A stretch of 64,000 nucleotides of DNA from a virus (Duplodnaviria; Heunggongvirae; Uroviricota; Caudoviricetes). The stretch lies in IMG/VR virus record IMGVR_UViG_2706794662_000007. One strand, given 5' to 3'. Positions 1-57,740 of this stretch are shown piece after piece. How positions within the stretch are numbered: the first letter of the stretch is position 1; every line of letters starts with the position of its first letter. The position numbers were made by a program, and so were the translations under genes. The notes beneath the pieces are model-generated. The model did not search any database. It saw only the letters and a list, made by a program, of their open reading frames with translations, and had not been told where the DNA came from.

Positions 1-319
1 CACCTTTGAGGGCGATCTCCGAACCGTTCTTCAACACGATTGTCATCGTGGTGTCGTTCTTTTTCCTAACCCACTTACGAGGCAGAACTTCCTGTAGATC
101 GTCCCACAAAATCTGGCGAGCCATCTGGTAAGTAGGAGCGACATACCAGACTCTTTGCTTTTTTTCCTTTGCCGCCGCACGAATAATAGTGGAGATCGAC
201 AACCGGGATTTTCCCCAGCGTCGACCAGCACAAACAACTTTAAATCGATGCGGAGACTGGAAGACTTTCATCTGTCCAGAATGCAGTTGCACAAGACTGA
301 GCGAGGACGGGATTGCCAT
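1..319 (-). CDS. terminase large subunit, N-terminal part (runs off window edge)
   Basis: Manual minus-strand translation from ATG at 319-317 gives MAIPSSLSLVQLHSGQMKVFQSPHRFKVVCAGRRWGKS... with a Walker A P-loop; start overlaps stop of upstream small terminase (TAATG). Not in ORF track because truncated. Confidence 0.55.
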   Translation of the reverse strand, partial: MAIPSSLSLVQLHSGQMKVFQSPHRFKVVCAGRRWGKSRLSISTIIRAAAKEKKQRVWYVAPTYQMARQILWDDLQEVLPRKWVRKKNDTTMTIVLKNGSEIALKG

Positions 320-951
320 TATTCGTCCTCCCCTTCACTTCCATCATCTGTCGCATCAAATTCGCTTAGAGCTTCTTCTTCCAACGTCTCAAGCAATTCG
401 TCATCGATGATTTCAGGCTCGTCGTCTTCCTGACGTAATTTCGCCACCTGGGAAGGCGTAAGCTCACCAAATACCAGGTTCGGAATTTCTTCCTCGTCAT
501 TTTCCGCATGATCCATGCCCAATGCTTTGGACGAAACTTCAAAGCATTTTGCAAGAGTATTACTGGCTCTCTGTAAGCTCTTGAGAGAATCCTCAATCGC
601 CCCTAAAGGCTTACCCTCACGTTTGGCCGTAGTGACTTCGACCATCACCATCTGCCCCAACGCATACGCCCAGCCGTCATAACGTGTACGACGTTCTTCT
701 ATCTTTTCCGCACGGGCTTTAGCGCGAAGCTCTGCGTCAGATTTAAGAGACTCACGAACCATCTTCCCAACAGAGTCCGCGCCTTTCTCTAATCCTCGCT
801 TTTTGAAATGTCTGGAGAGTGTTTCACGACGAATGCCGTACTCTTCCTCCAGCTTTGAGAGTGTATATTCGCCTGACGTCCATTTGGCTTCAGCTTCGGC
901 CCACTCCGCTGGTGTCAGGCGAGTTTTTACCTCGTCTTTTTCGACCGTCAT
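319..951 (-). CDS. terminase small subunit (HTH N-terminus, acidic C-terminus)
   Basis: 210 aa; N-terminal HTH-like segment TLSKLEEEYGIRRETLSRHFKKRG, acidic tail; directly upstream of and coupled to the large terminase ORF. Confidence 0.5.
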   Translation of the reverse strand: MTVEKDEVKTRLTPAEWAEAEAKWTSGEYTLSKLEEEYGIRRETLSRHFKKRGLEKGADSVGKMVRESLKSDAELRAKARAEKIEERRTRYDGWAYALGQMVMVEVTTAKREGKPLGAIEDSLKSLQRASNTLAKCFEVSSKALGMDHAENDEEEIPNLVFGELTPSQVAKLRQEDDEPEIIDDELLETLEEEALSEFDATDDGSEGEDE

Positions 952-1066
952 AGATCCCTCTAAAACACACAGAGCGCGTCCATGCGCTCTAAAACAACTT
1001 GTTTACTGCATATGCTAACCAACTTGTTTTCTGGGGTGTTTAATTAGGTCTGGGCATGTCTTACTA

Positions 1067-1123
1067 AGCCTGCTTCTGTATATATTTAATAAGTTACTTA
1101 TTATTTATATATACAGAAGCAGG
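1067..1123. repeat. long nested inverted repeat element, copy 1
   Basis: cctgcttctgtatatat...atatatacagaagcagg with palindromic AT-rich loop aataagttacttatt; flanked by outer inverted repeat ggtctggg/cccagacc. Confidence 0.7.
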
Positions 1124-1147
1124 TCTTTAAATAAGCTCCCAGACCGA

Positions 1148-1414
1148 TTACATCACCAGTAACTTCGCTTTGGCTCGACCTAAAGTGGTTAACCCAAGAG
1201 TCCGGCGGTGATAGCGATTGTCACTGCGTTGGCGCGTATGTCCTTTCTCCACCAGCCCCTTTTTTATCAGAGCGCGAATTGAGAACTGGATGCTTTGCTT
1301 GGTTGTCTTGTACGGCAAAACTTCAAGCAATTCGTCCAGATCAAGTAGATGACCTCGCTCATAACCGAGATTGAGCGTTTTGATGATGTCCTTTTGTTTG
1401 TCGGTTAACGTCAT
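1148..1414 (-). CDS. small winged-helix-like DNA-binding protein (hypothetical)
   Basis: 88 aa ORF, basic, HTH-like segment KQSIQFSIRALIKKGLVEKG; last gene of the leftward operon starting at 4568. Confidence 0.4.
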   Translation of the reverse strand: MTLTDKQKDIIKTLNLGYERGHLLDLDELLEVLPYKTTKQSIQFSIRALIKKGLVEKGHTRQRSDNRYHRRTLGLTTLGRAKAKLLVM

Positions 1415-1423
1415 GGCAAATCC

Positions 1424-2323
1424 TTATGCCGGTAAAGCAATTTCTAACGGTTTATCCAAAGGTTGTTTGTCGAATGCCAGCAGTGGCAGCGTGTCAGGCA
1501 GTCGACGACCAAAGTCAGGGTTTCGGTACACACCATACAACGGAGACGTAAAGCTCAGGTTGTGAATGTCCTTGAGCAGCTTCACAATGCTGGCCTCGTC
1601 CACCAGACTGTCGGCAATGTCCTGAATCGTCGTGCCACGATTCCGCCCAGCTTTTGCCAGGGAACTGTTCTTGTGGTAGTCCGCCACCAGATCACGCAGT
1701 GCACGGCGACGACGAGACTCGCTCATTGCGAACAACTCTTTGACGATCGCCTCGTTATCACCAGGGTCGGAACGGAAATGGCGCTGGAATACACGCAGTG
1801 CACTTTCATAGCTCTTCGGTCGCTCAGGGCGGATGAACTTAAACCCTGCTTTCATGGCGAAGGGATTGTATTTGCTCATCGAGGACTGGATCTCAATGAT
1901 TGGCCGGTCATGCATCCTGCTAACCAGGTTAATCATTCGATAAGAGACGCCTACGCCACGATACTGAGTATCCACAACTGAGCGACTGATCACCGCAAAG
2001 TTGTTATTCACGTACCGACCCCAGTACTGGTTAGCTACGGTGGTATTAGTGGTTGGTTTCAACTTAGGAAACATGCGGTGGCGAGGTGCCAACAGTAGTT
2101 TCGGGTAAGCCATAACCACGACGCCCACCAGACGGTCATCAAGTTCGCAGCGATAGTAAGTTGGCGCGAAAGGTTTGCCGTCTGTTTTGTAGTGAAGCGA
2201 CTTAAGAGCGTGCCAGTCCTCTACAGTTCCCTTTGTGACAGTCATTCGCTCCAGAAAGTCCAGATGACGCGGAAACTCTTCAGGGCGGTAGCGTTTGATG
2301 ATGATATCTGCCATGTCGATCAC
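1424..2323 (-). CDS. hypothetical protein (possible GNAT-like fold)
   Basis: 299 aa ORF; RGVGVS motif resembles acetyltransferase motif A; start overlaps upstream stop. Confidence 0.45.
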   Translation of the reverse strand: MIDMADIIIKRYRPEEFPRHLDFLERMTVTKGTVEDWHALKSLHYKTDGKPFAPTYYRCELDDRLVGVVVMAYPKLLLAPRHRMFPKLKPTTNTTVANQYWGRYVNNNFAVISRSVVDTQYRGVGVSYRMINLVSRMHDRPIIEIQSSMSKYNPFAMKAGFKFIRPERPKSYESALRVFQRHFRSDPGDNEAIVKELFAMSESRRRRALRDLVADYHKNSSLAKAGRNRGTTIQDIADSLVDEASIVKLLKDIHNLSFTSPLYGVYRNPDFGRRLPDTLPLLAFDKQPLDKPLEIALPA

Positions 2324-2574
2324 CTGCGCTCGATATTGGCATTGATGAAATCCAGGCGAAGAGACTCCATCGCCCCTACCATGACATACGGGCGCCCGCC
2401 GTTATGCCAGCAATCAAGAACACTGCCGTCGTTGTTGATCATCAACAGCGCCAGGCTCTGGCTTTTTCCTTCTCTGGCGTGCTGAAGTGCTTCTTCCAGC
2501 AGGCGGATGACTTCCACGTTGTTGTTATCAGTCTCTTTCGATGGCTTCAGCTCTACGATCTTCAAATCAGGCAT
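2320..2574 (-). CDS. hypothetical protein
   Basis: 84 aa ORF, coupled to flanking genes by overlapping start and stop. Confidence 0.4.
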   Translation of the reverse strand: MPDLKIVELKPSKETDNNNVEVIRLLEEALQHAREGKSQSLALLMINNDGSVLDCWHNGGRPYVMVGAMESLRLDFINANIERR

Positions 2575-3205
2575 ATTCCACCTTCACGCGTTCTTTGTAG
2601 TGCTTGGTGATCTGCATATCCGGGCGCAGCGCGTTCTTCAGGTCTTCGTGAGTCGTCGCCACCATTACCGTCGCACCAACCTTTCGAGCGGCACGCTGGA
2701 GGTTAGACGCCACAACCTGAGCGGTTACACGGTCTAGAACAGCGCCGAACTCGTCAGCAGCCCATACTTTAGCGCCTGACTCAATCAGTTTGGCAATCTT
2801 GAGACGATATTTCTGGCCGTCTGACATTTCAGAAGGCTTGCGAACAAACAGATATGCATCGTTCAGACCAGCCATAGATAACAACCCAAGCGCATCACTG
2901 GTCGTTTTGCCCAACTGATCGATGACGTTAACCTCATTATCGAAGGTAAAATCATCGATGGAGGCTACAGACAGCCCTTCATCCTTCATCTGTCGTTGCA
3001 ACTCGCGCAGCACAACGGATTTGCCGGAACCGGATTGGCCGGTGATGTACACCACATCGCCCTGCTTCACTTCCAGCTCCAGATTGTCGTAAAGCGTCCA
3101 CTCTTTTTCGTCCAGGCCAAGCCCGAACGACTCAGCGATTTCCAACGTGCGCGTGGTTTTATTTACGCGTGTCTGAAACGATACGTTGATGATGTATTTG
3201 CTCAT
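2567..3205 (-). CDS. standalone ABC-type ATPase (nucleotide-binding domain only)
   Basis: Walker A GQSGSGKS, ABC signature MSDGQKYR, Walker B VWAADEF, H-loop ATTHE; only 212 aa and no transmembrane partner nearby. Confidence 0.7.
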   Translation of the reverse strand: MSKYIINVSFQTRVNKTTRTLEIAESFGLGLDEKEWTLYDNLELEVKQGDVVYITGQSGSGKSVVLRELQRQMKDEGLSVASIDDFTFDNEVNVIDQLGKTTSDALGLLSMAGLNDAYLFVRKPSEMSDGQKYRLKIAKLIESGAKVWAADEFGAVLDRVTAQVVASNLQRAARKVGATVMVATTHEDLKNALRPDMQITKHYKERVKVEYA

Positions 3206-3870
3206 GCAGCCATCTCCCCGGAAGAGATTTTCTCCGCATATGCCACAAATGCGTCTACCCCGCTTTCTCCCGTCATTTCTTCCATGTGGGCAAGCAAATC
3301 ACCAACAACAATGGCAGAGCCAGCAGGAAGCGTTTTAAAGCCCAATACGTCGACAACACGTACTTCTTCCGCTGCAACTTCACGACTGATCTCGGTGTGT
3401 TCATCCTTCTGTCGTTTAGTTTCTTCGCCAAGATCGATAACTAGCGAGTCGGTGTCCATTTCTTCTGTCATACTGCCAACGAGAACATTCAACTCACGCT
3501 CTTCGAAGCCGAAAACCTCGATATCGTCCAGAACAAGCGACTCAAGCTCTTTCTGTAGCTTAATTGCATCGTAATCAATGCTGGCAAGTCGGTTATCTTC
3601 AAGGCGCTTCGCACGAACCTCGTCATCACTGAGATCATCGCGAACAATAACCGGTACACGCTCAAGTCCAGCAAAAATTGCAGCCTCACGACGGCCGTGG
3701 CCAGTAATAATTACGTCGTTCTTATCGACCGTAATTGGCTGGTCAAATCCGCGCTTTTTAATGGCTGCGGCCAGATCTCTGATCTGCTGTTCATCATGCT
3801 TTTTGGCATTCATCTCATAGGGAATAAGATCTGCCGGGTCGCGATATACGATTTCAAACTTTTTGGTCAT
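3202..3870 (-). CDS. ParB N-terminal domain (ParB/Srx-like nuclease fold) protein
   Basis: ParB-NTD motif ITGHGRREAA; start moved to internal ATG (M12 of track ORF) that overlaps upstream stop as TAATG with GGAG ribosome-binding site. Confidence 0.65.
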   Translation of the reverse strand: MTKKFEIVYRDPADLIPYEMNAKKHDEQQIRDLAAAIKKRGFDQPITVDKNDVIITGHGRREAAIFAGLERVPVIVRDDLSDDEVRAKRLEDNRLASIDYDAIKLQKELESLVLDDIEVFGFEERELNVLVGSMTEEMDTDSLVIDLGEETKRQKDEHTEISREVAAEEVRVVDVLGFKTLPAGSAIVVGDLLAHMEEMTGESGVDAFVAYAEKISSGEMAA

Positions 3871-4568
3871 TACATACGCTCCTTGTAGTAGTCGACCAGC
3901 CACACCAGAGCCTCACCAGCGTTCTCCATTTCATTACCGGTGTTAATAGCCTGCTCTTTGATGATGTTTTTTATGGTTTCTGCAACACGATCTGACGCAT
4001 CGAAAGTTACTTTGAAGCGCATGGTCTGATGTTCCGCCCCCACACGTTCGGTTTTCTCTCGTTTGTCGGTATCGACAGGCTCATCACTACCACGAGACAA
4101 CGCCTCCAGTGCTTCAAGGTCGATTGCCGCCTCTTTTGCTAAAACCATCGAGATTTCGTCGTCATACGGGGCGATTTCAGACAGTTGATAGTCAAGTTCT
4201 GACTGAATTTCTTCAATGAAGCGTTGCAATGCGATTTGGTCGTCTTCACCGTATCGCTCGTTGTCCACCAGTGACATCTGTTTAGCTACGACATCGCTAA
4301 TTTTGCCCACAGAAAGCACTGGAACCGTTGAAATTCCTTGCTCAATAGCGGCACGCCAGCGATGTTCGCCGCCGAGGATTTCAAAAAATCCATCTTCAAG
4401 TTCACGAGCCAAAATTGGCTTAAAAAAGCCCAATTTTTCGATAGAACCTTTCAGTTTTTCGAAATTCTGCGCACCAACCGAATTGGTGTTCCAGGTATTC
4501 GGGCGAAGGTTGGCAACATCAACCTGCAAAATCGTGATTTTTACGTCCATTTTATTGCTACAATCCAC
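3870..4568 (-). CDS. ParB N-terminal domain protein (paralog of neighbour)
   Basis: ParB-NTD motif ILGGEHRWRAA; first gene of leftward operon; motif B upstream at 4567-4589. Confidence 0.65.
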   Translation of the reverse strand: MDCSNKMDVKITILQVDVANLRPNTWNTNSVGAQNFEKLKGSIEKLGFFKPILARELEDGFFEILGGEHRWRAAIEQGISTVPVLSVGKISDVVAKQMSLVDNERYGEDDQIALQRFIEEIQSELDYQLSEIAPYDDEISMVLAKEAAIDLEALEALSRGSDEPVDTDKREKTERVGAEHQTMRFKVTFDASDRVAETIKNIIKEQAINTGNEMENAGEALVWLVDYYKERM

Positions 4569-4632
4569 TAAGTAATCACTTACTTATTATAATAGCCAAA
4601 TAACATACAAAAGGCACTAAGGAAAGAGGTTT

Positions 4633-9843: not shown

Positions 9844-10324
9844 ACACGCCATCAAGGATGTGGATGCGGTTGCTTGCGTATACATTCAGCATAAAGTTAG
9901 CGCAAAACAGTTTCCATGTATCAACGCCAGCGGTATACGTAATGTTTTTGCATTTAATTGCATTGTTGGCGATCCGCATCCCCTGCGATACTGCTTCATC
10001 GTCGGAAAATTTGAACGACGATTGAGTTTTAATCCAGACAGAAATCTGCGTAGCGAACTCAATCAGCTTGGACTGGCAGAATCGCCCGGAGCGCACCGGA
10101 AAGACGAACGTTCCGAATCCAGAATTTACCACATACGCTTTCTCAAATACCCGCGAGTAACGACGATTGCCAATGATGTCGCGTGCAATAATGCATTTTT
10201 CTTGTGCTGACAGTTCTACCGTCTCATTGTCGCGCCATGCACCAAGTACTCGTTTTTCAATGTCAGAGAACGTTACAGCGATATTGCCATGTGCGGGTGC
10301 GTTTACAGTAGCGATAAAATTCAT
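9844..10324 (-). CDS. hypothetical protein, 3' end lost in N-run
   Basis: ORF starts MNFIATVNAPAHG at 10324; motif A at 10343-10360 upstream; true stop unknown. Confidence 0.4.
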
Positions 10325-18719: not shown

Positions 18720-18904
18720 AGCGTTTTGCCCTCAATACTGTTCATTTACACAGTATACATGAAAGAAGCTCACTCAGTGCAACTGATCGGTACATAGCAC
18801 CAGACAAAGGAACGTTATTTTCTCGAACAAGAAAAGGTAGAAAACAAATTGTTTAAGGCCACAACTAGTGGCCTTAATGGAGAAGGGATGCTTATTGGCT
18901 ATGG

Positions 18905-23903: not shown

Positions 23904-24041
23904 GTGTTTTTCTCTTCTTTGCTGTTACATAAGCACTACCAAGTGCTGGTTTATTTTCACAAATAAGAAAATGTAGAAAACAATTTATTTAAGGCCACAA
24001 CTTATGGCCTTTATTTATTCATGCCGAAGGATTTGTAGCGT

Positions 24042-25126: not shown

Positions 25127-25187
25127 ATGTTTTTCTCTTATCGTTTAGTTATTACATTCTTACACAAATTAAGTAAGTATTTACCTA

Positions 25188-26892
25188 TCATTTAACGCGT
25201 TTGAAAACGTATACGCTGACTGTGATCCCTGTGTCTTCAAACTCGTTGGTAAACGACTTCCCTCTGGCATAAACGTAATTATCCATCGTCATCCAGTCCA
25301 GTATTGGCGCNNNNNNNNNNNNNNNNNNNNNNNNNNNNNNNNNNNNNNNNNNNNNNNNNNNNNNNNNNNNNNNNNNNNNNNNNNNNNNNNNNNNNNNNNN
25401 NNNNNNNNNNNNNNNNNNNNNNNNNNNNNNNNNNNNNNNNNNNNNNNNNNNNNNNNNNNNNNNNNNNNNNNNNNNNNNNNNNNNNNNNNNNNNNNNNNNN
25501 NNNNNNNNNNNNNNNNNNNNNNNNNNNNNNNNNNNNNNNNNNNNNNNNNNNNNNNNNNNNNNNNNCCAGATCGGCGTTAATATAGGCCAGAAGATCCCCA
25601 CGTCCGGCTTGAGGCTCCAACAGCTTCTCACCAGGCTTCAATTCAGTGGCTCTGGCAACGTACTCAGCAATCAAGCGTGGGGTAGGGTAGAACTGGTGTG
25701 ATTTTGTATCCGGTATTAAACCGGTAGCCACAATCGTATTTAGCGTATGGCCGATCTCATACGGGAACTGCCAGTGCTTTTTCTCCTGCACGCCGCCAAT
25801 GAAGCTCAGTGTGCGCTCAAGCTCTTCCACCTGCGACTTCTGGAGAGCTGAATCAGAGAAGTACCATACGCCTTTGTCTTTGCTCAATCGCCCGTCACGA
25901 AGCGCAGTGCGAACCGGCACGGAGATCGTCTTCTGGATTAACCCGAACTGCTTTGGTGCCCGTGTTTTTGGCGCAGTTCGGCATGGCGCGGGGATTGCAG
26001 CAGGCATACTGTAAGCCAGCACCTCATTCAACTTCCAGGCCACGTCAGGATGTATTTCAAAGTGAACGTTGCCGTTCTTGAACATCTTCACGCGCATCAG
26101 ATTTCCATCGACGTTCATCCAGTCACCGGTCTGGCAGTCGTTTGCCCGATACGCAGCTGATAGCACCTCAGCAGTGCGGTTGATGGTAATAAATTCTTTG
26201 TGCGCGAAGAAATGAAGCAAGACACGCAGATCGTCGATGTAGTCCTCTTTGCGATAGTTCACGCTAACGCTGTCACGCCAGAAATCAGAAATGCAGTCAG
26301 CGATTATCAGACGCTCGCTGAAACCGTTTGTCTTATTTGTCTTGTGCGCAGGACTCAGCGCCTTAAACAAGCCATACACGCGCTCAGAGAGATATTTGTG
26401 CCTGTCATTCAGCAAATTAAGCATCGTTGGTATGACCGTTTCTGCTTTGAACTCCGGTACACCAACGAACTCTTTAACCTTCATCTGATAGCCGGTTCTG
26501 TCAGTTTTGATGACTTCCTGCTTGCCCTCGATAAATAGCTCACGCCACTCGTCGCGACGGGAAGCTGGCATGATCAGCAGAACGTTAGTCATATCCGTAA
26601 CCTTCCTCCAGTACTCGGCCCAAATATTCTGTTTCACCCATTCCAGATCGACGTTATCCAGCCAGACTCGATTCAAACGTGAGCGATCTTCATCTGGTCG
26701 GTGGTTTAGTCGAAGCAGGCGATTAATCATGTTGTGGCGTTCATCGCCATAAACGAAGTCGTGTACCTGATACATGAAGGAGATCTCTTTCTCGCACTCG
26801 GCCACAATTTCGTGGATGACGTTCATTTCCTGTCGATAGTCGATAGCAGTGTTTGAGCTGGCATCGCCCATGATGGAAAGGGCTGTATTCAT
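25188..26892 (-). CDS. putative N6-adenine DNA methyltransferase with large N-terminal extension (C-terminal part masked)
   Basis: FYPTPRLIAEYV followed by EPQAGRGDLLAYI (motif X then motif I, gamma-class order) just before the N-run; the catalytic (D/N)PPY region would lie in the masked part. Confidence 0.45.
25311..25565. other. N-run
   Basis: 255 n. Confidence 1.
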
Positions 26893-30051: not shown

Positions 30052-30175
30052 AAAGAGTTGCGGCTGGCAATCGCCAGCCGCCTTTCTCGTTCCATCCTGG
30101 AACTGTGTCTTACCGACACATTGTCATCCTGACGCCGATAAGATACATGATTTATAATGATAGGTAAACACTTAC

Positions 30176-30769
30176 TTACTGTTTGTTATAAACAAAACCA
30201 ATATCTTTCTTGTGAGGCATATCTGCTGCTGAAAAAGCTGCGATCTTCGCGAGTCGATCACATATTTCATTTTCACGATGCCCGGCGTGACCTTTAACCC
30301 ACTTCCAGCGAACATTATGTCGACTTGCGGCCTCATCCAGACGCTTCCACAGATCAACATTCTTTACCGGTTTTTTGTCAGAAGTCATCCATCCATTGCG
30401 TTTCCACCATTTCATCCACTGTGTCATGCCGTTTTTCAGATACTGGCTATCAGAGTGCAAAATAACGTTGCATGGATATTTCAAACGCTCCAGCCCGATA
30501 AGTGCCCCCATCATCTCCATGCGGTTATTGGTGGTGCTATGAAAACCATCTGAGAACTCGCGTTCCTCGCCACGATACTGGAGAACGATACCGTAACCGC
30601 CCGGGCCACCCGGATTTTTAAGGCAAGAGCCATCACTAAAGATTTTCACGGTTTTAAGCTGGGGATTGAACTCTACGACAGGCGTTGTGGGATTGGTGCG
30701 GGGAGAATTTTTGTTTTTGTCTTTTTTGCGAGTTTTTGCTTGCGGTCGGGCTGGTGTCTTCGTTGTCAT
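30176..30769 (-). CDS. rnhA: ribonuclease HI
   Basis: [19 protein letters not shown]...HSDSQY...[16 protein letters not shown] matches the RNase H fold catalytic pattern; start set to MTTKTPAR. Confidence 0.85.
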
Positions 30770-31350: not shown

Positions 31351-31581
31351 TCATTTCGATTGATTATTTTCTCGACCATGTAGTTGAACATTCAAGGCAA
31401 ACACCTCGTTGATCAACTCACCTAAAAGCTGTTCAACAAGTTCGCGATGCTCCCCAAGATGCAAGCACTTAATTGCCCACTCGTACAAGTTGAAAGCCTG
31501 CTCACGATCTTTCATCATTTCACGAGCCTGGGCCAGAAAATCGCTGTCTACGAGCGCAACGACATTAGTCGGGTATGACAT
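31351..31581 (-). CDS. hypothetical protein
   Basis: Start MSYPTNVV with AAGGA ribosome-binding site. Confidence 0.4.
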   Translation of the reverse strand: MSYPTNVVALVDSDFLAQAREMMKDREQAFNLYEWAIKCLHLGEHRELVEQLLGELINEVFALNVQLHGRENNQSK

Positions 31582-31689
31582 GTTGGTTTCCTTAAAGTGG
31601 TTCATAAAATCGATTTTAAAGCGTCTGGGAAGGGGGTCTAGTGGATTCTGTAGTGATGTTCAGGTCTGGAGTCTCTGATACAAAACAGC

Positions 31690-31746
31690 CTGCTTCCGTA
31701 TATTAATAATTAATATGTAGTTATTTATATATATACAGAAGCAGGC
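31690..31746. repeat. long nested inverted repeat element, copy 2
   Basis: cctgcttccgtatat...atatatacagaagcagg, same architecture as copy 1. Confidence 0.7.
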
Positions 31747-31768
31747 TAATTACAGACGCCAGAACAAA

Positions 31769-32362
31769 CTAAGCAGCCTTCTTTGATGGTCTTTTTTTCC
31801 TGATCACATTCGCAGGATCATACCCTCCCAGACTTTTCATGACGTCCAAAGGGATCTTGCTTATAGAGTGCCCAGCGTCCTGACAGAATCCTCGAAAAAC
31901 AACGAGCATACTGCCACCGGGGTTGATGTTTACTTCTACCTGACCCAAATTGACGTCAGGCTCGACAAACGCTACGCGGCCACCAGACAGAATAATCGTC
32001 TCATTCGCATACTCTGTTGCACGCTCATACCACTTTGTATCGAGGGATTGAGGAATTAGCATCACTGTAGTAACTCCGCGAGCCTGCTCACGTATAGCAG
32101 CATCAATCCAGGGGGAGATTTTGGAGTAGGGTGGATTGAGGAAGGCAATTGTACCTGGCTGTCCCCATTCAGATTTCAAAGCATCACGCTCAATGCCTAT
32201 GAAATTAGGCAGCTTTGCGTTGTCCTTGTTGCAGGCAACGTCAACATCAAATGTCACTCCAAGATAACGTTGAATGGCAGAAAACAGCCAATCAGGTGTT
32301 CTCCAGAGGTCACGAAGAGAGTTGTCGCGCTTTCGCTGTTTGATTTTTTCGGCTGCAATCAT
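31769..32362 (-). CDS. phage-type N6-adenine DNA methyltransferase (Dam-like)
   Basis: TPDWLF and NPPY motifs; about 197 aa typical of the phage Dam family. Confidence 0.75.
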   Translation of the reverse strand: MIAAEKIKQRKRDNSLRDLWRTPDWLFSAIQRYLGVTFDVDVACNKDNAKLPNFIGIERDALKSEWGQPGTIAFLNPPYSKISPWIDAAIREQARGVTTVMLIPQSLDTKWYERATEYANETIILSGGRVAFVEPDVNLGQVEVNINPGGSMLVVFRGFCQDAGHSISKIPLDVMKSLGGYDPANVIRKKRPSKKAA

Positions 32363-32544
32363 CTTCTTTCTCGATAGGTAAGTAAATACCTATTTTTGCA
32401 TTTGATTTTATGTATGGCAATCAAATAAAACGCGCCAGAAATGCGAACAAGAAGCTCTCTGGCGCGTTTTTTTGGTGCTGGGTATGGGTTATCTTACCCA
32501 GCACTATAAAGCTCTCTATGGGCTTTATTTTCAGTAGGGGAACG

Positions 32545-41916: not shown

Positions 41917-41949
41917 TGTTAATAGATAAGCACTTACCTATCAATGAAA

Positions 41950-46510: not shown

Positions 46511-46764
46511 GTGTTTTTCCTTTGTGGTTATTTTGATACAAATTTTAAGAGCAATGAGAAGGTAAACAACTATGCATAACGGTATGTTAGGAATGAAACG
46601 AGCGTCTTAATATACAAAATTTATAAGTAAGTATATACCTATTTGTTGTGGCGCAACTTTGCTTGTCTGTATGACTAAAAATAAGACAGGATCACTGTAG
46701 AACGCTATGAGAGCTATTTTGAGGAGGCGTAGATTCTATCTACGCCAATATACGATCTGGAGGG

Positions 46765-47608: not shown

Positions 47609-47710
47609 GTATGCTGTCAGCGGTAATTGATAGTCTGTCAGCGGTTCACCGTATGCTGCCAACTGTTTTTGGTATTCTGTCAGCGGCAAATCAAGTATGC
47701 TGTCAGCGGT
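47609..47710 (+). repeat. five upstream iterons, consensus (g)tatgctgtcagcggt
   Basis: Copies at about 47609, 47632, 47651, 47674, 47695, ending 21 nt before the repA ATG. Confidence 0.85.
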
Positions 47711-47730
47711 TGAATGACAAAGGTGTCCAC

Positions 47731-48825
47731 ATGTCCACAAAAAATAAAAAAGGTAAAAATAACAAAGAAGTAGAAGATAACATCGACAACTTTGAAGAAG
47801 GTTCCCTTGAATTGTACACAGGGGAACTTGTCCCTAATAGCAACAATACAGTCCAACCAATTGCGTTGATGCGACTGGGGTTGTTCGTCCCCACGCTTAA
47901 GGGAACAAAATACAGTAAACGTAACAAGCCAAATGAGATCGATGCTTCAAAGGAGCTTGTCCAGCTCGAAGTAGCCCGTTCTGAAGGCTATTCCGATATC
48001 AAGATAACCGGTCCTCGTCTCGACATGGATCATGATTTCAAAACGTGGGTGGGCGTTGTGCGTTCGCTGGCAGAATACGGCGAACCTAACGGTCGTGTCG
48101 AGTTAAGCATCACGAAATTTGCTAAGTTTTGTGGCTATCCATCGTCACAGATCCGCAAAACACTCCGCGACCGGCTTACAAACAGTCTTTTGAAGATCAT
48201 GCGTACAACTCTGTCTTTCCAGAGAACGTATGAAGAAAAGAACGTCGACGGCTCTAACAAGATCTCGCTTCTGATGGTGCACCTCATCAATAGCGTGGAC
48301 TACAACGAGCAGAAAGATACGGTGGTGTTCTATGCAGAACCGAAGCTGGCCGAACTATATCGCTTTGACCATAAGGTTCTTTTGCAGTTAAAGGTTATCA
48401 ATAAGCTACCACGCAAAGAAACAGCACAGGCTCTGTACACCTTCATCGAAAGTCTTCCAACCAAGCCTGCGCCGGTATCGCTTGCTCGATTGCGTGCGCG
48501 ACTCAATTTGAGTAGCAGGAATGTCAGCTCGCAGAATCAGACTATACGTAACGGCTTAAAAGCTCTCCAAGATTTGGGCTATCTCGAATACAGCGAGATT
48601 AAGCGTGGGCGGTCGATCTATATCCAGATTCACAGCCGCAATCCAAAACTCAAAGTCGCACCGCCAAAACCTGAAGACATCGAACCCAAAAAACCAGATG
48701 AGAAAGCTGGGGAAATTGATGCCAAACAGAACATTATCAACAAGATAACCGAACTTTCGCAGAATTTGACGCCTGAAAATATCAAGATGATTGAGATCCT
48801 TTCCAATAGTCTCAAACTGCTTTGA
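47731..48825 (+). CDS. repA: iteron-binding replication initiator RepA (P1-type)
   Basis: NSNNTVQPIALMRLGLFVP...GYSDIKITGPRLDMDHDFKTW...ALYTFIESLP...IHSRNPKLK resembles P1-family RepA as I recall it; start set to MSTKNKK (M41 of track ORF). Confidence 0.85.
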   Translation: MSTKNKKGKNNKEVEDNIDNFEEGSLELYTGELVPNSNNTVQPIALMRLGLFVPTLKGTKYSKRNKPNEIDASKELVQLEVARSEGYSDIKITGPRLDMDHDFKTWVGVVRSLAEYGEPNGRVELSITKFAKFCGYPSSQIRKTLRDRLTNSLLKIMRTTLSFQRTYEEKNVDGSNKISLLMVHLINSVDYNEQKDTVVFYAEPKLAELYRFDHKVLLQLKVINKLPRKETAQALYTFIESLPTKPAPVSLARLRARLNLSSRNVSSQNQTIRNGLKALQDLGYLEYSEIKRGRSIYIQIHSRNPKLKVAPPKPEDIEPKKPDEKAGEIDAKQNIINKITELSQNLTPENIKMIEILSNSLKLL

Positions 48826-49357
48826 TATGCTGTCAGCGGTGAAATGTATGCTATCAGCGGCTATTTTTCTGAAAAGTATGCTGTGAACGGTTAAAGATAT
48901 GCTACCAGCGGTATAGTGAGATGAACGTATGCTGTGAGCGGTAAATCATCTATCACCACTCAATGCTCTGTCATACCTCCCCAGTGGTTACTAACCTCGA
49001 AGAGTGCATTCCATATAGGTTTGCGCTCACTAACATTCTATTGCTATTGCGCTGATTGCTTGTAGTGAAAGGCATTTATTGCCTGCTACTCCCTGATAGA
49101 ACGTATGCTGTCAGCGGTGTTTTATTGAGGAATTTTTGTTTGGATATGCTATCAGCGGTAATTAATGGCATATGTCAGACATTCGTATGCTGCCAGCGGT
49201 AATTTTGTTCTGGTTATACCCATACCGGTACACATTATTCATGCAATGTCTTAAGTATGCTGTCAGCGGTAAAAAATCGAGTAAAGTATGCTGTGAGCGG
49301 TGAGATAGACTCTCGATATGCTATCAGCGGTAGTTGATTGTGTATGCTGTCAGCGGT
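48824..49357 (+). repeat. downstream iteron array (12 copies in two groups)
   Basis: tatgctNNcagcggt copies at about 48824, 48846, 48876, 48896, 48926, then 49103, 49143, 49184, 49254, 49285, 49315, 49341; all same orientation. Confidence 0.85.
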
Positions 49358-49404
49358 GACGACTATGAAATATGACTGCGGAACGTGCCGCAGTCAGTTT
49401 GCAT

Positions 49405-50128: not shown

Positions 50129-50167
50129 GATAGGTAGATACTAACTTATATAAACTTTACTGTAAAC

Positions 50168-54138: not shown

Positions 54139-54205
54139 GTGTTTTCCTATGTGGTTGTTATGCGAAAATAATAAGTAAGTACTTATATATTTTCAAGAGA
54201 TAAAA

Positions 54206-57623: not shown

Positions 57624-57740
57624 GTGTTTCTCCTTGTTGTGATTTGGCCGATGGCGCTATGCGCGTTGGGCTTTCGTTCATTCGTGGCTCTTTCGAGCTG
57701 TTAAATGATAGATCAGTACTTACTTATTATCTATCAAAAA

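What the first reader, a model, noticed from the sequence alone, without database searches (positions are those of the whole stretch)
1050..1140. Two copies of a long nested inverted-repeat element (about 1067-1123 and 31690-31746)
Each copy has a perfect inverted repeat of about 17 bp (CCTGCTTCTGTATATAT / ATATATACAGAAGCAGG) around an AT-rich loop that is itself palindromic and resembles motif B, plus an outer imperfect inverted repeat. Both lie between a gene stop and the next promoter. This could be a bidirectional terminator combined with an operator, a cruciform recombination site, or a mobile miniature element.
Basis: seen in the sequence. Interest (0 to 1): 0.5.

Follow-up and report, generated by a model that had tools for sequence, protein, structure and literature searches.

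The report
Three conserved hairpin terminators in phage-plasmid
The two long palindromes are real and belong to a set of three near-identical, roughly 100-bp hairpin elements that sit just after gene ends in SSU5-like phage-plasmids; they most likely stop transcription at the borders between gene modules, but their unusually strict sequence conservation is not explained.

Summary
The window is an SSU5/pHCM2/pMT1-type phage-plasmid. Copy 1 (1069-1123) has perfect 17-nt arms. Copy 2 (31689-31745) is imperfect.

A third copy lies outside the window, so there are exactly three per genome:
- c1, before terS
- c3, after the parA/parG-like operon and before the helicase-primase genes
- c2, after dam

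All three keep their positions across about 58 related contigs and about 260 complete E. coli genomes, almost always on plasmids.

The element is larger than reported. It reads GGTCTGGGAG, 10-16 nt, CCTGCTTCYG, 33-37 nt of 93% A+T, CRGAAGCAGG, 13-17 nt, CTCCCAGACC. It starts 3-24 nt after a stop codon.

c2 and c3 carry a T-run directly after the hairpin, on the transcribed strand only. Published RNA-seq of the Cyrano lysogen shows a more than 100-fold drop across c3. A sister lineage has ordinary terminators at all three positions.

Best reading: conserved long-hairpin terminators or insulators at module borders (confidence about 0.5). c1 has no T-run, and the arms are nearly invariant with no clear covariation. 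A trans-acting factor that recognises the element, as DNA or RNA, therefore remains plausible. A cos/pac site, recombination site, mobile element or P1-type late promoter is poorly supported.

The parts
1069..1123 (-). Copy 1 (c1) core palindrome. Arms are 1069-1085 and 1107-1123, both CCTGCTTCTGTATATAT. The A+T centre, 1086-1106, holds TAATAAGTnACTTATTA.
   Evidence: Orthologous copies in 22 loci. Sense RNA of 1040-1150 folds at -51.3 kcal/mol, z = -11.4.
1136..1145 (-). c1 outer repeat, upstream half in the direction of transcription (GGTCTGGGAG). It starts 2 nt after the stop codon of the 88-aa gene.
   Evidence: Conserved in c1 orthologues.
1047..1056 (-). c1 outer repeat, downstream half (reads CCCAGACC on the minus strand).
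1148..1414 (-). Upstream gene: 88 aa, phrog_900, with weak similarity to winged-helix regulators. Its stop codon is 24 nt before c1.
   Evidence: The Cyrano homologue CYRAN_123 is expressed in the lysogen.
961..991 (-). Separate canonical GC hairpin with a T-run (TAGAGCGCATGGACGCGCTCTG TGTGTTTTAG), placed directly before the terS start codon.
   Evidence: An equivalent hairpin is present in nickie, Acinetobacter, Aeromonas and Klebsiella relatives.
319..951 (-). terS (small terminase, phrog_867), the first gene after c1.
31689..31745 (-). Copy 2 (c2) core palindrome. Arms are 31689-31705 (3 mismatches) and 31729-31745 (exact).
   Evidence: Orthologues in 14 loci.
31675..31688 (-). T-run tail of c2 on the transcribed strand (CTGTTTTGTATCAG).
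   Evidence: All 6 unique c2 tails have a T-run of 4 or more on the sense side; 0 of 6 do on the antisense side.
31759..31765 (-). c2 outer repeat, upstream half (GTTCTGG on the minus strand). It lies 3-4 nt after the dam stop codon.
31663..31671 (-). c2 outer repeat, downstream half (CTCCAGACC on the minus strand).
31769..32362 (-). Upstream gene: Dam-type adenine methyltransferase. Its stop codon is 23 nt before c2.
31351..31581 (-). Downstream gene: 76 aa, phrog_5343, homologue of CYRAN_80. It starts 107 nt after c2.

Best explanation
The palindromes are two of three paralogous elements (c1, c2, c3), each about 100 bp, that mark the ends of transcription units in SSU5-like phage-plasmids.

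Proposed mechanism: when RNA polymerase reads through from the upstream gene on the window minus strand, the transcript folds into a stem of about 25 bp. The base of the stem is G+C-containing (CCUGCUUCYG / CRGAAGCAGG) and the top is A+U. At c2 and c3 a U-run follows the stem directly, so the element acts as a one-directional intrinsic terminator.

The likely effect is to insulate the next module from upstream transcription. c3 would shield the helicase-primase replication genes from the lysogenically expressed parA operon. Read-through RNA would add the outer stem (GGUCUGGGAG / CUCCCAGACC), giving a long double-stranded RNA that host RNase III should cut.

c1 lacks the U-run. It probably works as a pause, processing or stabilising hairpin, and a separate canonical terminator lies 100 nt further on, just before terS.

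What is shown: the anatomy, the conservation, the strand-specific T-runs, and the expression drop at c3.

What is inferred: that the hairpin itself causes the drop, the RNase III cleavage, and any factor that recognises the conserved arms.
For: (1) Each element begins 3-24 nt after the stop codon of a same-strand gene. At c3 this holds even though the upstream gene differs between genomes.

(2) A T-run of 3 or more follows the hairpin on the sense side in 6/6 unique c2 and 15/16 unique c3 sequences. On the antisense side the figures are 0/6 and 3/16.

(3) RNA-seq of the E. coli LF82 lysogen carrying Cyrano (PMC9928086, S1 table) gives CYRAN_28/29/30 at 50/89/55 in LB, and log2(fpkm+5) of about 10 in other conditions. 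CYRAN_31 is at 6, and 2.6-3.9. That is a more than 100-fold drop across the 193-nt gap that holds c3. No other hairpin with a T-run is in that gap.

(4) A sister lineage from Klebsiella michiganensis and K. oxytoca (TerS 59-65% identical) has ordinary GC hairpin plus T-run terminators at all three positions.

(5) The sense RNA folds very stably: -51, -40 and -32 kcal/mol, with z from -5.9 to -11.4.

(6) The most conserved part is the G+C base of the stem, next to the T-run. The A+U top varies and carries indels. This is the pattern expected for a terminator hairpin.
Against: c1 has no T-run in any of 9 unique variants. Across c1 plus the second terminator the expression drop is only about 3-5-fold.

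A 25-bp stem is far longer than in typical intrinsic terminators, and the consensus scanner does not call it.

The arms are nearly invariant in 28 unique sequences across three paralogous sites. Where they vary (positions 5, 6 and 9), the two arms vary independently, which produces mismatches.

Sense RNA is not consistently more stable than antisense RNA. In Klebsiella/SSU5-type c2 the antisense fold is better.

The sister lineage carries a different shared box of about 50 nt at c2 and c3, in addition to its terminators. Such concerted, lineage-specific sequence points to recognition by a factor, which a plain terminator does not need.

The RNA-seq evidence is per gene, from a paper's table. 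It is not a map of 3' ends.
Confidence: 0.5

Rival explanations
1. The elements are double-stranded DNA sites for a plasmid- or phage-encoded protein. One form is a dispersed centromere or silencing site, as in the linear plasmid-prophage N15, where the partition protein's binding sites are scattered in the genome. The other form is operators of a repressor that holds the packaging, replication and nucleotide-metabolism modules silent in the prophage.
For: The anatomy is four conserved blocks in two-fold symmetry, separated by variable spacers of nearly constant length. The arms are invariant at 11 of 15 positions, with no clear compensatory change. There are three copies spread around the circle at roughly 0, 31 and 78 kb. 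c3 lies just downstream of a type Ib parA plus ribbon-helix-helix parG-like operon, and in some genomes directly after its stop codon. The lytic relative nickie lacks the palindrome upstream of terS, so the element goes with the plasmid way of life. The sister lineage has a different shared box at the same positions.
Against: No half-site occurs in the parA promoter region, where type Ib partition proteins normally also bind. The DNA-contacting strand of the parG-like protein is identical in the sister lineage that lacks the palindromes. Arm-to-arm distance varies by 4 bp, since total length is 53-57, so helical phasing is not kept. This reading does not explain the strand-specific T-runs or the position right after stop codons. 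No binding protein is identified.
Confidence: 0.25
2. The elements are origins of lytic replication. Two inverted initiator sites flank a 35-bp A+T unwinding region, as in herpes simplex oriS/oriL. Alternatively they are R-loop origins as in phage T4.
For: The centre is 93% A+T over 33-37 bp between conserved inverted 10-mers. c3 lies directly upstream of the hypothetical-gene/DnaB-helicase/primase module. The phage encodes T4-like recombination and replication proteins: UvsW, UvsY, gp32-like, RecA, SbcCD and RuvC. Several origins per genome are known in T4 and HSV (established knowledge).
Against: No initiator protein is identified. Nickie shares the replication and packaging genes but has no such palindrome at the c1 position. 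The sister lineage replaced the palindromes with other sequences. Cumulative GC skew shows no turning point at either copy, although skew here is dominated by one-directional transcription. The T-runs and stop-codon proximity are unexplained.
Confidence: 0.1
3. Copy 1 is the packaging site (cos or pac) recognised by terminase, and the other copies are relics or extra initiation sites.
For: c1 lies 117 nt upstream of terS. The linear GenBank record of SSU5 begins and ends inside c1, at the inner edge of one arm. Cyrano's record does the same to within 1 nt. The large terminase of the related Nickievirus genus groups with 3'-cos phages (PMC8537276).
Against: Three near-identical copies per genome would give three cut sites 31-47 kb apart in a phage of about 108 kb. 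Relatives with homologous terminases lack c1 (nickie) or have only a remnant of it (K. oxytoca lineage). Cyrano's record start was probably copied from SSU5. Record starts of other relatives are arbitrary: p4727 starts at an ATG, and Nican01 is cut inside terS. An assembly break at a strong hairpin would also explain SSU5's ends.
Confidence: 0.05
4. The copies are site-specific recombination targets, or copies of a miniature mobile element.
For: The structure is palindromic with terminal inverted repeats. An integrase is encoded elsewhere on the element.
Against: The same three positions and orientations occur in all relatives, with no rearranged forms. There are no copies in other contexts or on chromosomes: 4 of 1429 matched places. 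No target-site duplications are seen. Same-orientation sites would delete essential genes.
Confidence: 0.03

Closest known systems
Rho-independent (intrinsic) transcription terminators
   Same: A hairpin with a G+C-containing stem base, followed at c2 and c3 by a U-run on the transcribed strand. It sits just after a stop codon, and expression collapses across c3.
   Different: The stem is about 25 bp rather than 5-14 bp. The three copies are near-identical paralogues conserved across genera. There is a second, outer stem. c1 has no U-run.
RNase III processing sites between genes of phage T7
   Same: Several related, long intergenic hairpins in one-directional polycistronic phage transcripts. 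The predicted double-stranded RNA exceeds 20 bp.
   Different: No cleavage data exist. T7 sites have a characteristic internal bubble and do not terminate transcription. Here two of the three carry U-runs.
Dispersed centromere sites (sopC-like inverted repeats) of plasmid-prophage N15
   Same: A phage-plasmid with a few palindromic sites scattered in regions of lytic genes. One site is next to a partition operon.
   Different: There is no sequence relation. The partition system here is type Ib (small ParA plus a ribbon-helix-helix protein), not SopAB. No binding has been shown. The partition protein's DNA-reading strand is unchanged in a lineage that lacks the palindromes.
P1 Lpa-dependent late promoters (-22 box AAGTnACTT plus a -10 hexamer)
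   Same: The centre of c1 and c3 carries an exact AAGT(A/T/G)ACTT, the same 9-mer pattern as the annotated P1 -22 boxes. P1 also has such a promoter before its small-terminase gene pacA.
   Different: No Lpa homologue is found. The -10 spacing and sequence do not fit. The box is not enriched elsewhere in the genome. The window's copy 2 lacks it.
Herpes simplex oriS/oriL palindromic origins
   Same: Inverted 10-bp sites flank an A+T-rich centre. There are three copies per genome.
   Different: The resemblance is only anatomical. No initiator is known, and the elements lie between same-direction genes, right after stop codons.

Membership tests
Intrinsic terminator | Stable hairpin with a G+C-rich stem base in the transcribed strand | tested here: met
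   Core palindrome RNA folds at -14.5 to -28 kcal/mol. With flanks it reaches about -26 to -56 kcal/mol. The stem base is CCUGCUUCYG / CRGAAGCAGG.
Intrinsic terminator | U-run within 0-3 nt after the stem, on the transcribed strand | tested here: inconclusive
   Met for c2 (6/6) and c3 (15/16). Not met for c1 (0/9).
Intrinsic terminator | Transcript abundance falls across the element | tested here: inconclusive
   Gene-level RNA-seq from PMC9928086 shows a more than 100-fold drop across c3, about 3-5-fold across c1 plus the next hairpin, and is uninformative for c2. No 3'-end mapping is available.
Intrinsic terminator | Usual size: stem 5-14 bp, loop 3-8 nt | tested here: not met
   The stem is about 25 bp. 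The consensus scanner does not call it.
cos/pac packaging site | One site per genome, next to the terminase genes | tested here: not met
   There are three copies per genome. Only c1 is next to terS.
cos/pac packaging site | Coincides with the physical ends of virion DNA | not testable with these tools
   The SSU5 and Cyrano records end inside c1. How those ends were set is not known, and other records start arbitrarily.
N15-type dispersed centromere | The same site is also present at, or bound by, the element's own partition operon | tested here: not met
   No half-site occurs upstream of parA. The DNA-reading strand of the parG-like protein is identical in the lineage that lacks palindromes. 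Binding itself is not testable here.
P1 Lpa-type late promoter | -22 box AAGTnACTT followed after 4 nt by TAnnnT | tested here: inconclusive
   The box is exact in c1 and c3. The hexamer 4 nt downstream is AATATA or TTTATA, not TAnnnT. The window's c2 has no box.
P1 Lpa-type late promoter | An Lpa activator is encoded and the box recurs before late operons | tested here: not met
   tblastn of P1 Lpa against the window, the rest of the genome and SSU5 gives nothing better than E = 0.9. The box is not enriched.
Site-specific recombination site / miniature mobile element | Rearrangements between copies, or copies in varied genomic contexts | tested here: not met
   Only three conserved contexts occur in 58 loci. 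1425 of 1429 E. coli matches are on plasmids, with a median equivalent to 3 elements per plasmid.
RNase III processing site | At least about 20 bp of double-stranded RNA; cleavage by RNase III | not testable with these tools
   The length criterion is met by folding. Cleavage cannot be tested.
Known RNA families (Rfam) | Match at or above a family's gathering score | tested here: not met
   Only sub-threshold microRNA-hairpin matches were found.

The most novel reading that the evidence does not exclude
The three elements are cis-sites for a dedicated factor encoded by the phage-plasmid. They would be either regulated terminators whose conserved hairpin is recognised by an antiterminator when the prophage switches to lytic growth, or N15-like dispersed DNA sites that couple partition or silencing to the borders of the lytic modules. 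The strict sequence conservation, and the concerted replacement at all three positions in a sister lineage, would then reflect co-evolution with that factor.
Probability: 0.3. Interest if true: 0.65.

Novelty: new variant of a known kind. Interest (0 to 1): 0.4.

Why it matters
SSU5/pHCM2/pMT1-type phage-plasmids are common in clinical Enterobacteriaceae. About 5% of complete E. coli genomes in the collection carry these elements, and the TerS gene matches 955 plasmid records. The family includes the Yersinia pestis pMT1 backbone. Their regulatory wiring is essentially unstudied.

A fixed set of three conserved boundary elements gives a concrete handle on two questions. One is how lytic modules are kept silent next to genes expressed in the lysogen. 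The other is where accessory genes can be inserted safely: the slot just upstream of c3 is variable. If a factor does recognise the elements, it would be a new control point of the plasmid-to-phage switch.

Tried and rejected
- **cos/pac site.** Prompted by SSU5 and Cyrano records ending inside c1. Downgraded because there are three copies, relatives lack the site, and other record starts are arbitrary.
- **IMG/VR locus ends near palindromes.** Dropped as evidence, because locus ends are not necessarily contig ends.
- **P1-type late promoter.** The P1 -22 box matches the centre. There is no Lpa homologue, no enrichment, and a poor -10.
- **LexA box.** CTGTATATAT is half an SOS box. The halves are about 39 nt apart, and about half of all arms read CCGT.
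- **Host repeat or mobile element.** Rejected by the E. coli genome survey.
- **Paralogy of the genes downstream of the three copies.** None found.
- **Strand-specific RNA selection** (G·U versus C·A, and sense versus antisense stability). The signal is mixed and confounded by shared ancestry.
- **Outer motif GGTCTGGGAG as a genome-wide motif.** Not enriched: 35 matches against 31 expected.
- **pMT1 as a test of the centromere idea.** Uninformative. It keeps only c1 and has lost the c2 and c3 regions.
- **The Acinetobacter palindrome TAATAAGCGCTTATTA.** It turned out to be the analogue of 'motif B', a small operator-like site before genes such as sbcD, not of the long palindromes.
- **Literature searches** for SSU5 termini, origins or these repeats found nothing.

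Full report
**What the window is.** The window matches SSU5-like phage-plasmids at 98-100% identity: 'Escherichia phage CMS-2020a' plasmids, Cyrano (pLF82) and PhiR41_1. It matches Salmonella phage SSU5 and Klebsiella relatives at about 76-84%. Nearly all genes run on the window's minus strand.

**The observation.** Copy 1 has perfectly complementary 17-nt arms at 1069-1085 and 1107-1123 (CCTGCTTCTGTATATAT) around a 21-nt A+T loop. Copy 2 (31689-31745) has one exact arm and one with three mismatches. The window has four half-sites against 0.15 expected by chance. The outer imperfect repeat is real: 51-nt arms at 71% complementarity. The description is therefore correct for copy 1 and slightly overstated for copy 2.

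**A third copy and fixed positions.** The part of the closest genome that lies outside the window holds a third copy (CP054387.1, about 30.7 kb). SSU5 also has exactly three. In Cyrano coordinates they lie:
- c1, at about 0 kb, 117 nt before terS
- c3, at about 31.2 kb, between CYRAN_30 and CYRAN_31, followed by the DnaB-like helicase and primase
- c2, at about 78.1 kb, between dam and CYRAN_80

A scan of viral contigs gave 58 further elements. All but three could be assigned to one of these three contexts, always in the same orientation. The other three were divergent elements whose flanks matched too weakly to place. Among complete E. coli genomes, 260 of 5426 have matches. 1425 of 1429 places are on plasmids. 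The median is six places per genome, which equals three palindromes counted on both strands. pMT1 of Yersinia pestis keeps c1 only.

**Anatomy.** Read in the direction of transcription, the element is GGTCTGGGAG, 10-16 nt, CCTGCTTCYG, 33-37 nt of 93% A+T, CRGAAGCAGG, 13-17 nt, (CT)CCCAGAC(C). The A+T stretch often has AATAAGTnACTTATT at its centre. The core is 53-57 nt long. In 28 unique cores, arm positions 1-4, 7, 8 and 10-14 are essentially invariant. Positions 5, 6 and 9 vary, and they vary independently in the two arms. At position 9 the pairs are T-A in 5 sequences, T·G in 17, C-G in 4 and C·A in 2. The outer motif is not a general motif of the genome. No Rfam family matches.

**Evidence for a terminator or insulator role.**
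- Every copy starts 3-24 nt after the stop codon of a same-strand gene. This holds at c3 even though the upstream gene differs between genomes.
- A T-run follows the hairpin on the transcribed strand in 6/6 unique c2 and 15/16 unique c3 sequences. On the other strand the figures are 0/6 and 3/16.
- In published RNA-seq of the LF82 lysogen, the parA operon (CYRAN_28-30) is well expressed and CYRAN_31 is at background. This is a more than 100-fold drop across the 193-nt gap whose only hairpin with a T-run is c3 (PMC9928086, S1 table).
- A sister lineage from Klebsiella michiganensis and K. oxytoca (TerS 59-65% identical) has ordinary GC hairpin plus T-run terminators at all three positions.
- The sense RNA folds at -51, -40 and -32 kcal/mol for c1, c2 and c3, far below shuffled controls.

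**What this reading does not explain.**
- c1 has no T-run in any variant. A separate canonical hairpin terminator lies directly before the terS start codon, and that feature is shared even with distant relatives.
- The arms are conserved as sequence, not merely as pairing.
- Sense RNA is not consistently more stable than antisense RNA.
- In the sister lineage, c2 and c3 share a different box of about 50 nt in addition to their terminators.

Concerted, lineage-specific sequence at three sites suggests recognition by a factor. I could not identify one.

**Candidate factors examined.** The gene just upstream of c1 encodes an 88-aa protein with weak similarity to winged-helix regulators. Its Cyrano homologue is expressed in the lysogen. 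The operon upstream of c3 is a type Ib parA plus a 119-aa ribbon-helix-helix protein, which Cyrano's annotation labels RelE/ParE. The DNA-reading strand of that protein is identical in the lineage that lacks the palindromes. The parA promoter has no half-site.

**Other readings.**
- cos/pac site. The SSU5 and Cyrano records end inside c1. Against this, there are three copies per genome, and nickie and the K. oxytoca lineage lack the site. Other record starts are arbitrary.
- P1-type late promoter. The centre of c1 and c3 contains the exact P1 late-promoter -22 box pattern AAGTnACTT. No Lpa homologue is found, the -10 fits poorly, and the box is not enriched.
- Origin of replication. This fits the anatomy and the T4-like replication and recombination gene set, but has no further support.
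- Recombination site or mobile element. Contradicted by strict conservation of position and by the absence of copies elsewhere.

**Verdict.** The finding is real and larger than described. It is a three-member family of conserved long-hairpin elements at the borders of gene modules. Two of them have the full architecture of a one-directional intrinsic terminator, and one of those two (c3) coincides with a more than 100-fold expression drop. I put about 0.5 on terminator/insulator as the main function. I put about 0.3 on the more novel possibility that a dedicated factor recognises the elements, as regulated terminators or as dispersed DNA sites. I found no description of these elements in the searchable literature.

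Noticed in passing
window about 990-1030; also 10345, 12012, 14948, 28540, 29255, 39481, 53025 and others; L007 18590-18610 (upstream of parA): 'Motif A': a palindrome-centred box, GAAAACAAnTTGTTT(AAGCA), repeated at least 10 times in intergenic regions. Two copies lie between c1 and terS and one lies before parA. A similar box is upstream of terS in Pseudomonas phage nickie. It does not fit a standard sigma-70 promoter.
   Followed up: partly
window 4568-4587, 25169-25188, 30160-30178, 32374-32393, 41922-41941, 46623-46642, 50130-50148, 54168-54190, 57708-57727: 'Motif B': a 19-20-bp near-palindrome, TAAGTAAGTAnnTACCTAT, at about 12 sites, often within 10-40 nt of a start codon. It looks like the operator of a dimeric regulator. 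Acinetobacter relatives have an analogous TAATAAGCGCTTATTA before terS and before sbcD.
   Followed up: partly
window 961-991 (minus strand): A GC hairpin with a T-run lies directly before the terS start codon. The same arrangement is present in Klebsiella, Aeromonas, Acinetobacter and Pseudomonas (nickie) relatives. This suggests attenuation or antitermination control of the packaging and structural operon.
   Followed up: partly
window 47609-49364: Fourteen copies of a 23-nt iteron, GTATGCTGTCAGCGGTAAT..., in two clusters that flank the repA region. This is presumably the plasmid origin.
   Followed up: no
L007 17522-17881 (CP054387.1; = CYRAN_29): The 119-aa protein after parA has a basic tail and a ribbon-helix-helix signature (KSRTMSLEDE...TRSDVIRAAI). 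It is most likely the centromere-binding partner of a type Ib partition system. Cyrano's annotation calls it a RelE/ParE toxin.
   Followed up: partly
L007 15776-17479 and the equivalent position in other loci (upstream flank of c3): The slot between the parG-like gene and c3 is variable. It is empty in some genomes. In others it holds a KAP-family NTPase, DUF2971 or other genes. It appears to be a preferred place for accessory genes, closed off by c3.
   Followed up: partly
window 1424-4500 and L136 3383-7187 (phage nickie): A cluster of two ParB-like nuclease-domain proteins and two ABC-type ATPases, with a divergent UvsW-like helicase, is conserved directly upstream of terS. It is conserved from enterobacterial phage-plasmids to the distantly related Pseudomonas siphovirus nickie. 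Its function is unknown.
   Followed up: no
L141 4066-4130 and 31566-31630; L147 about 3200-3260; L148 about 10095-10160: The sister lineage (Klebsiella michiganensis type) has a different shared A+T-rich box, CTTAATTAAAAAGATTTTAAAAAGAGCTTTAAATACTATCYRGAGC, at the c2 and c3 positions. A related stretch lies at c1, next to a remnant left arm, CCTGATTCTGTAT.
   Followed up: partly
NC_018843.1 positions 1 and 103299 (L003, L001): The linear SSU5 record starts and ends inside the c1 palindrome, at the inner edge of one arm. This is either a true DNA end or an assembly break at the hairpin. It is unresolved.
   Followed up: partly
window 18855-18877 and 23989-24011: Two near-identical small hairpins, AAGGCCACAACTAGTGGCCTT, each preceded by the same box of about 40 nt that includes a motif-A-like sequence (repeat family D4).
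   Followed up: no
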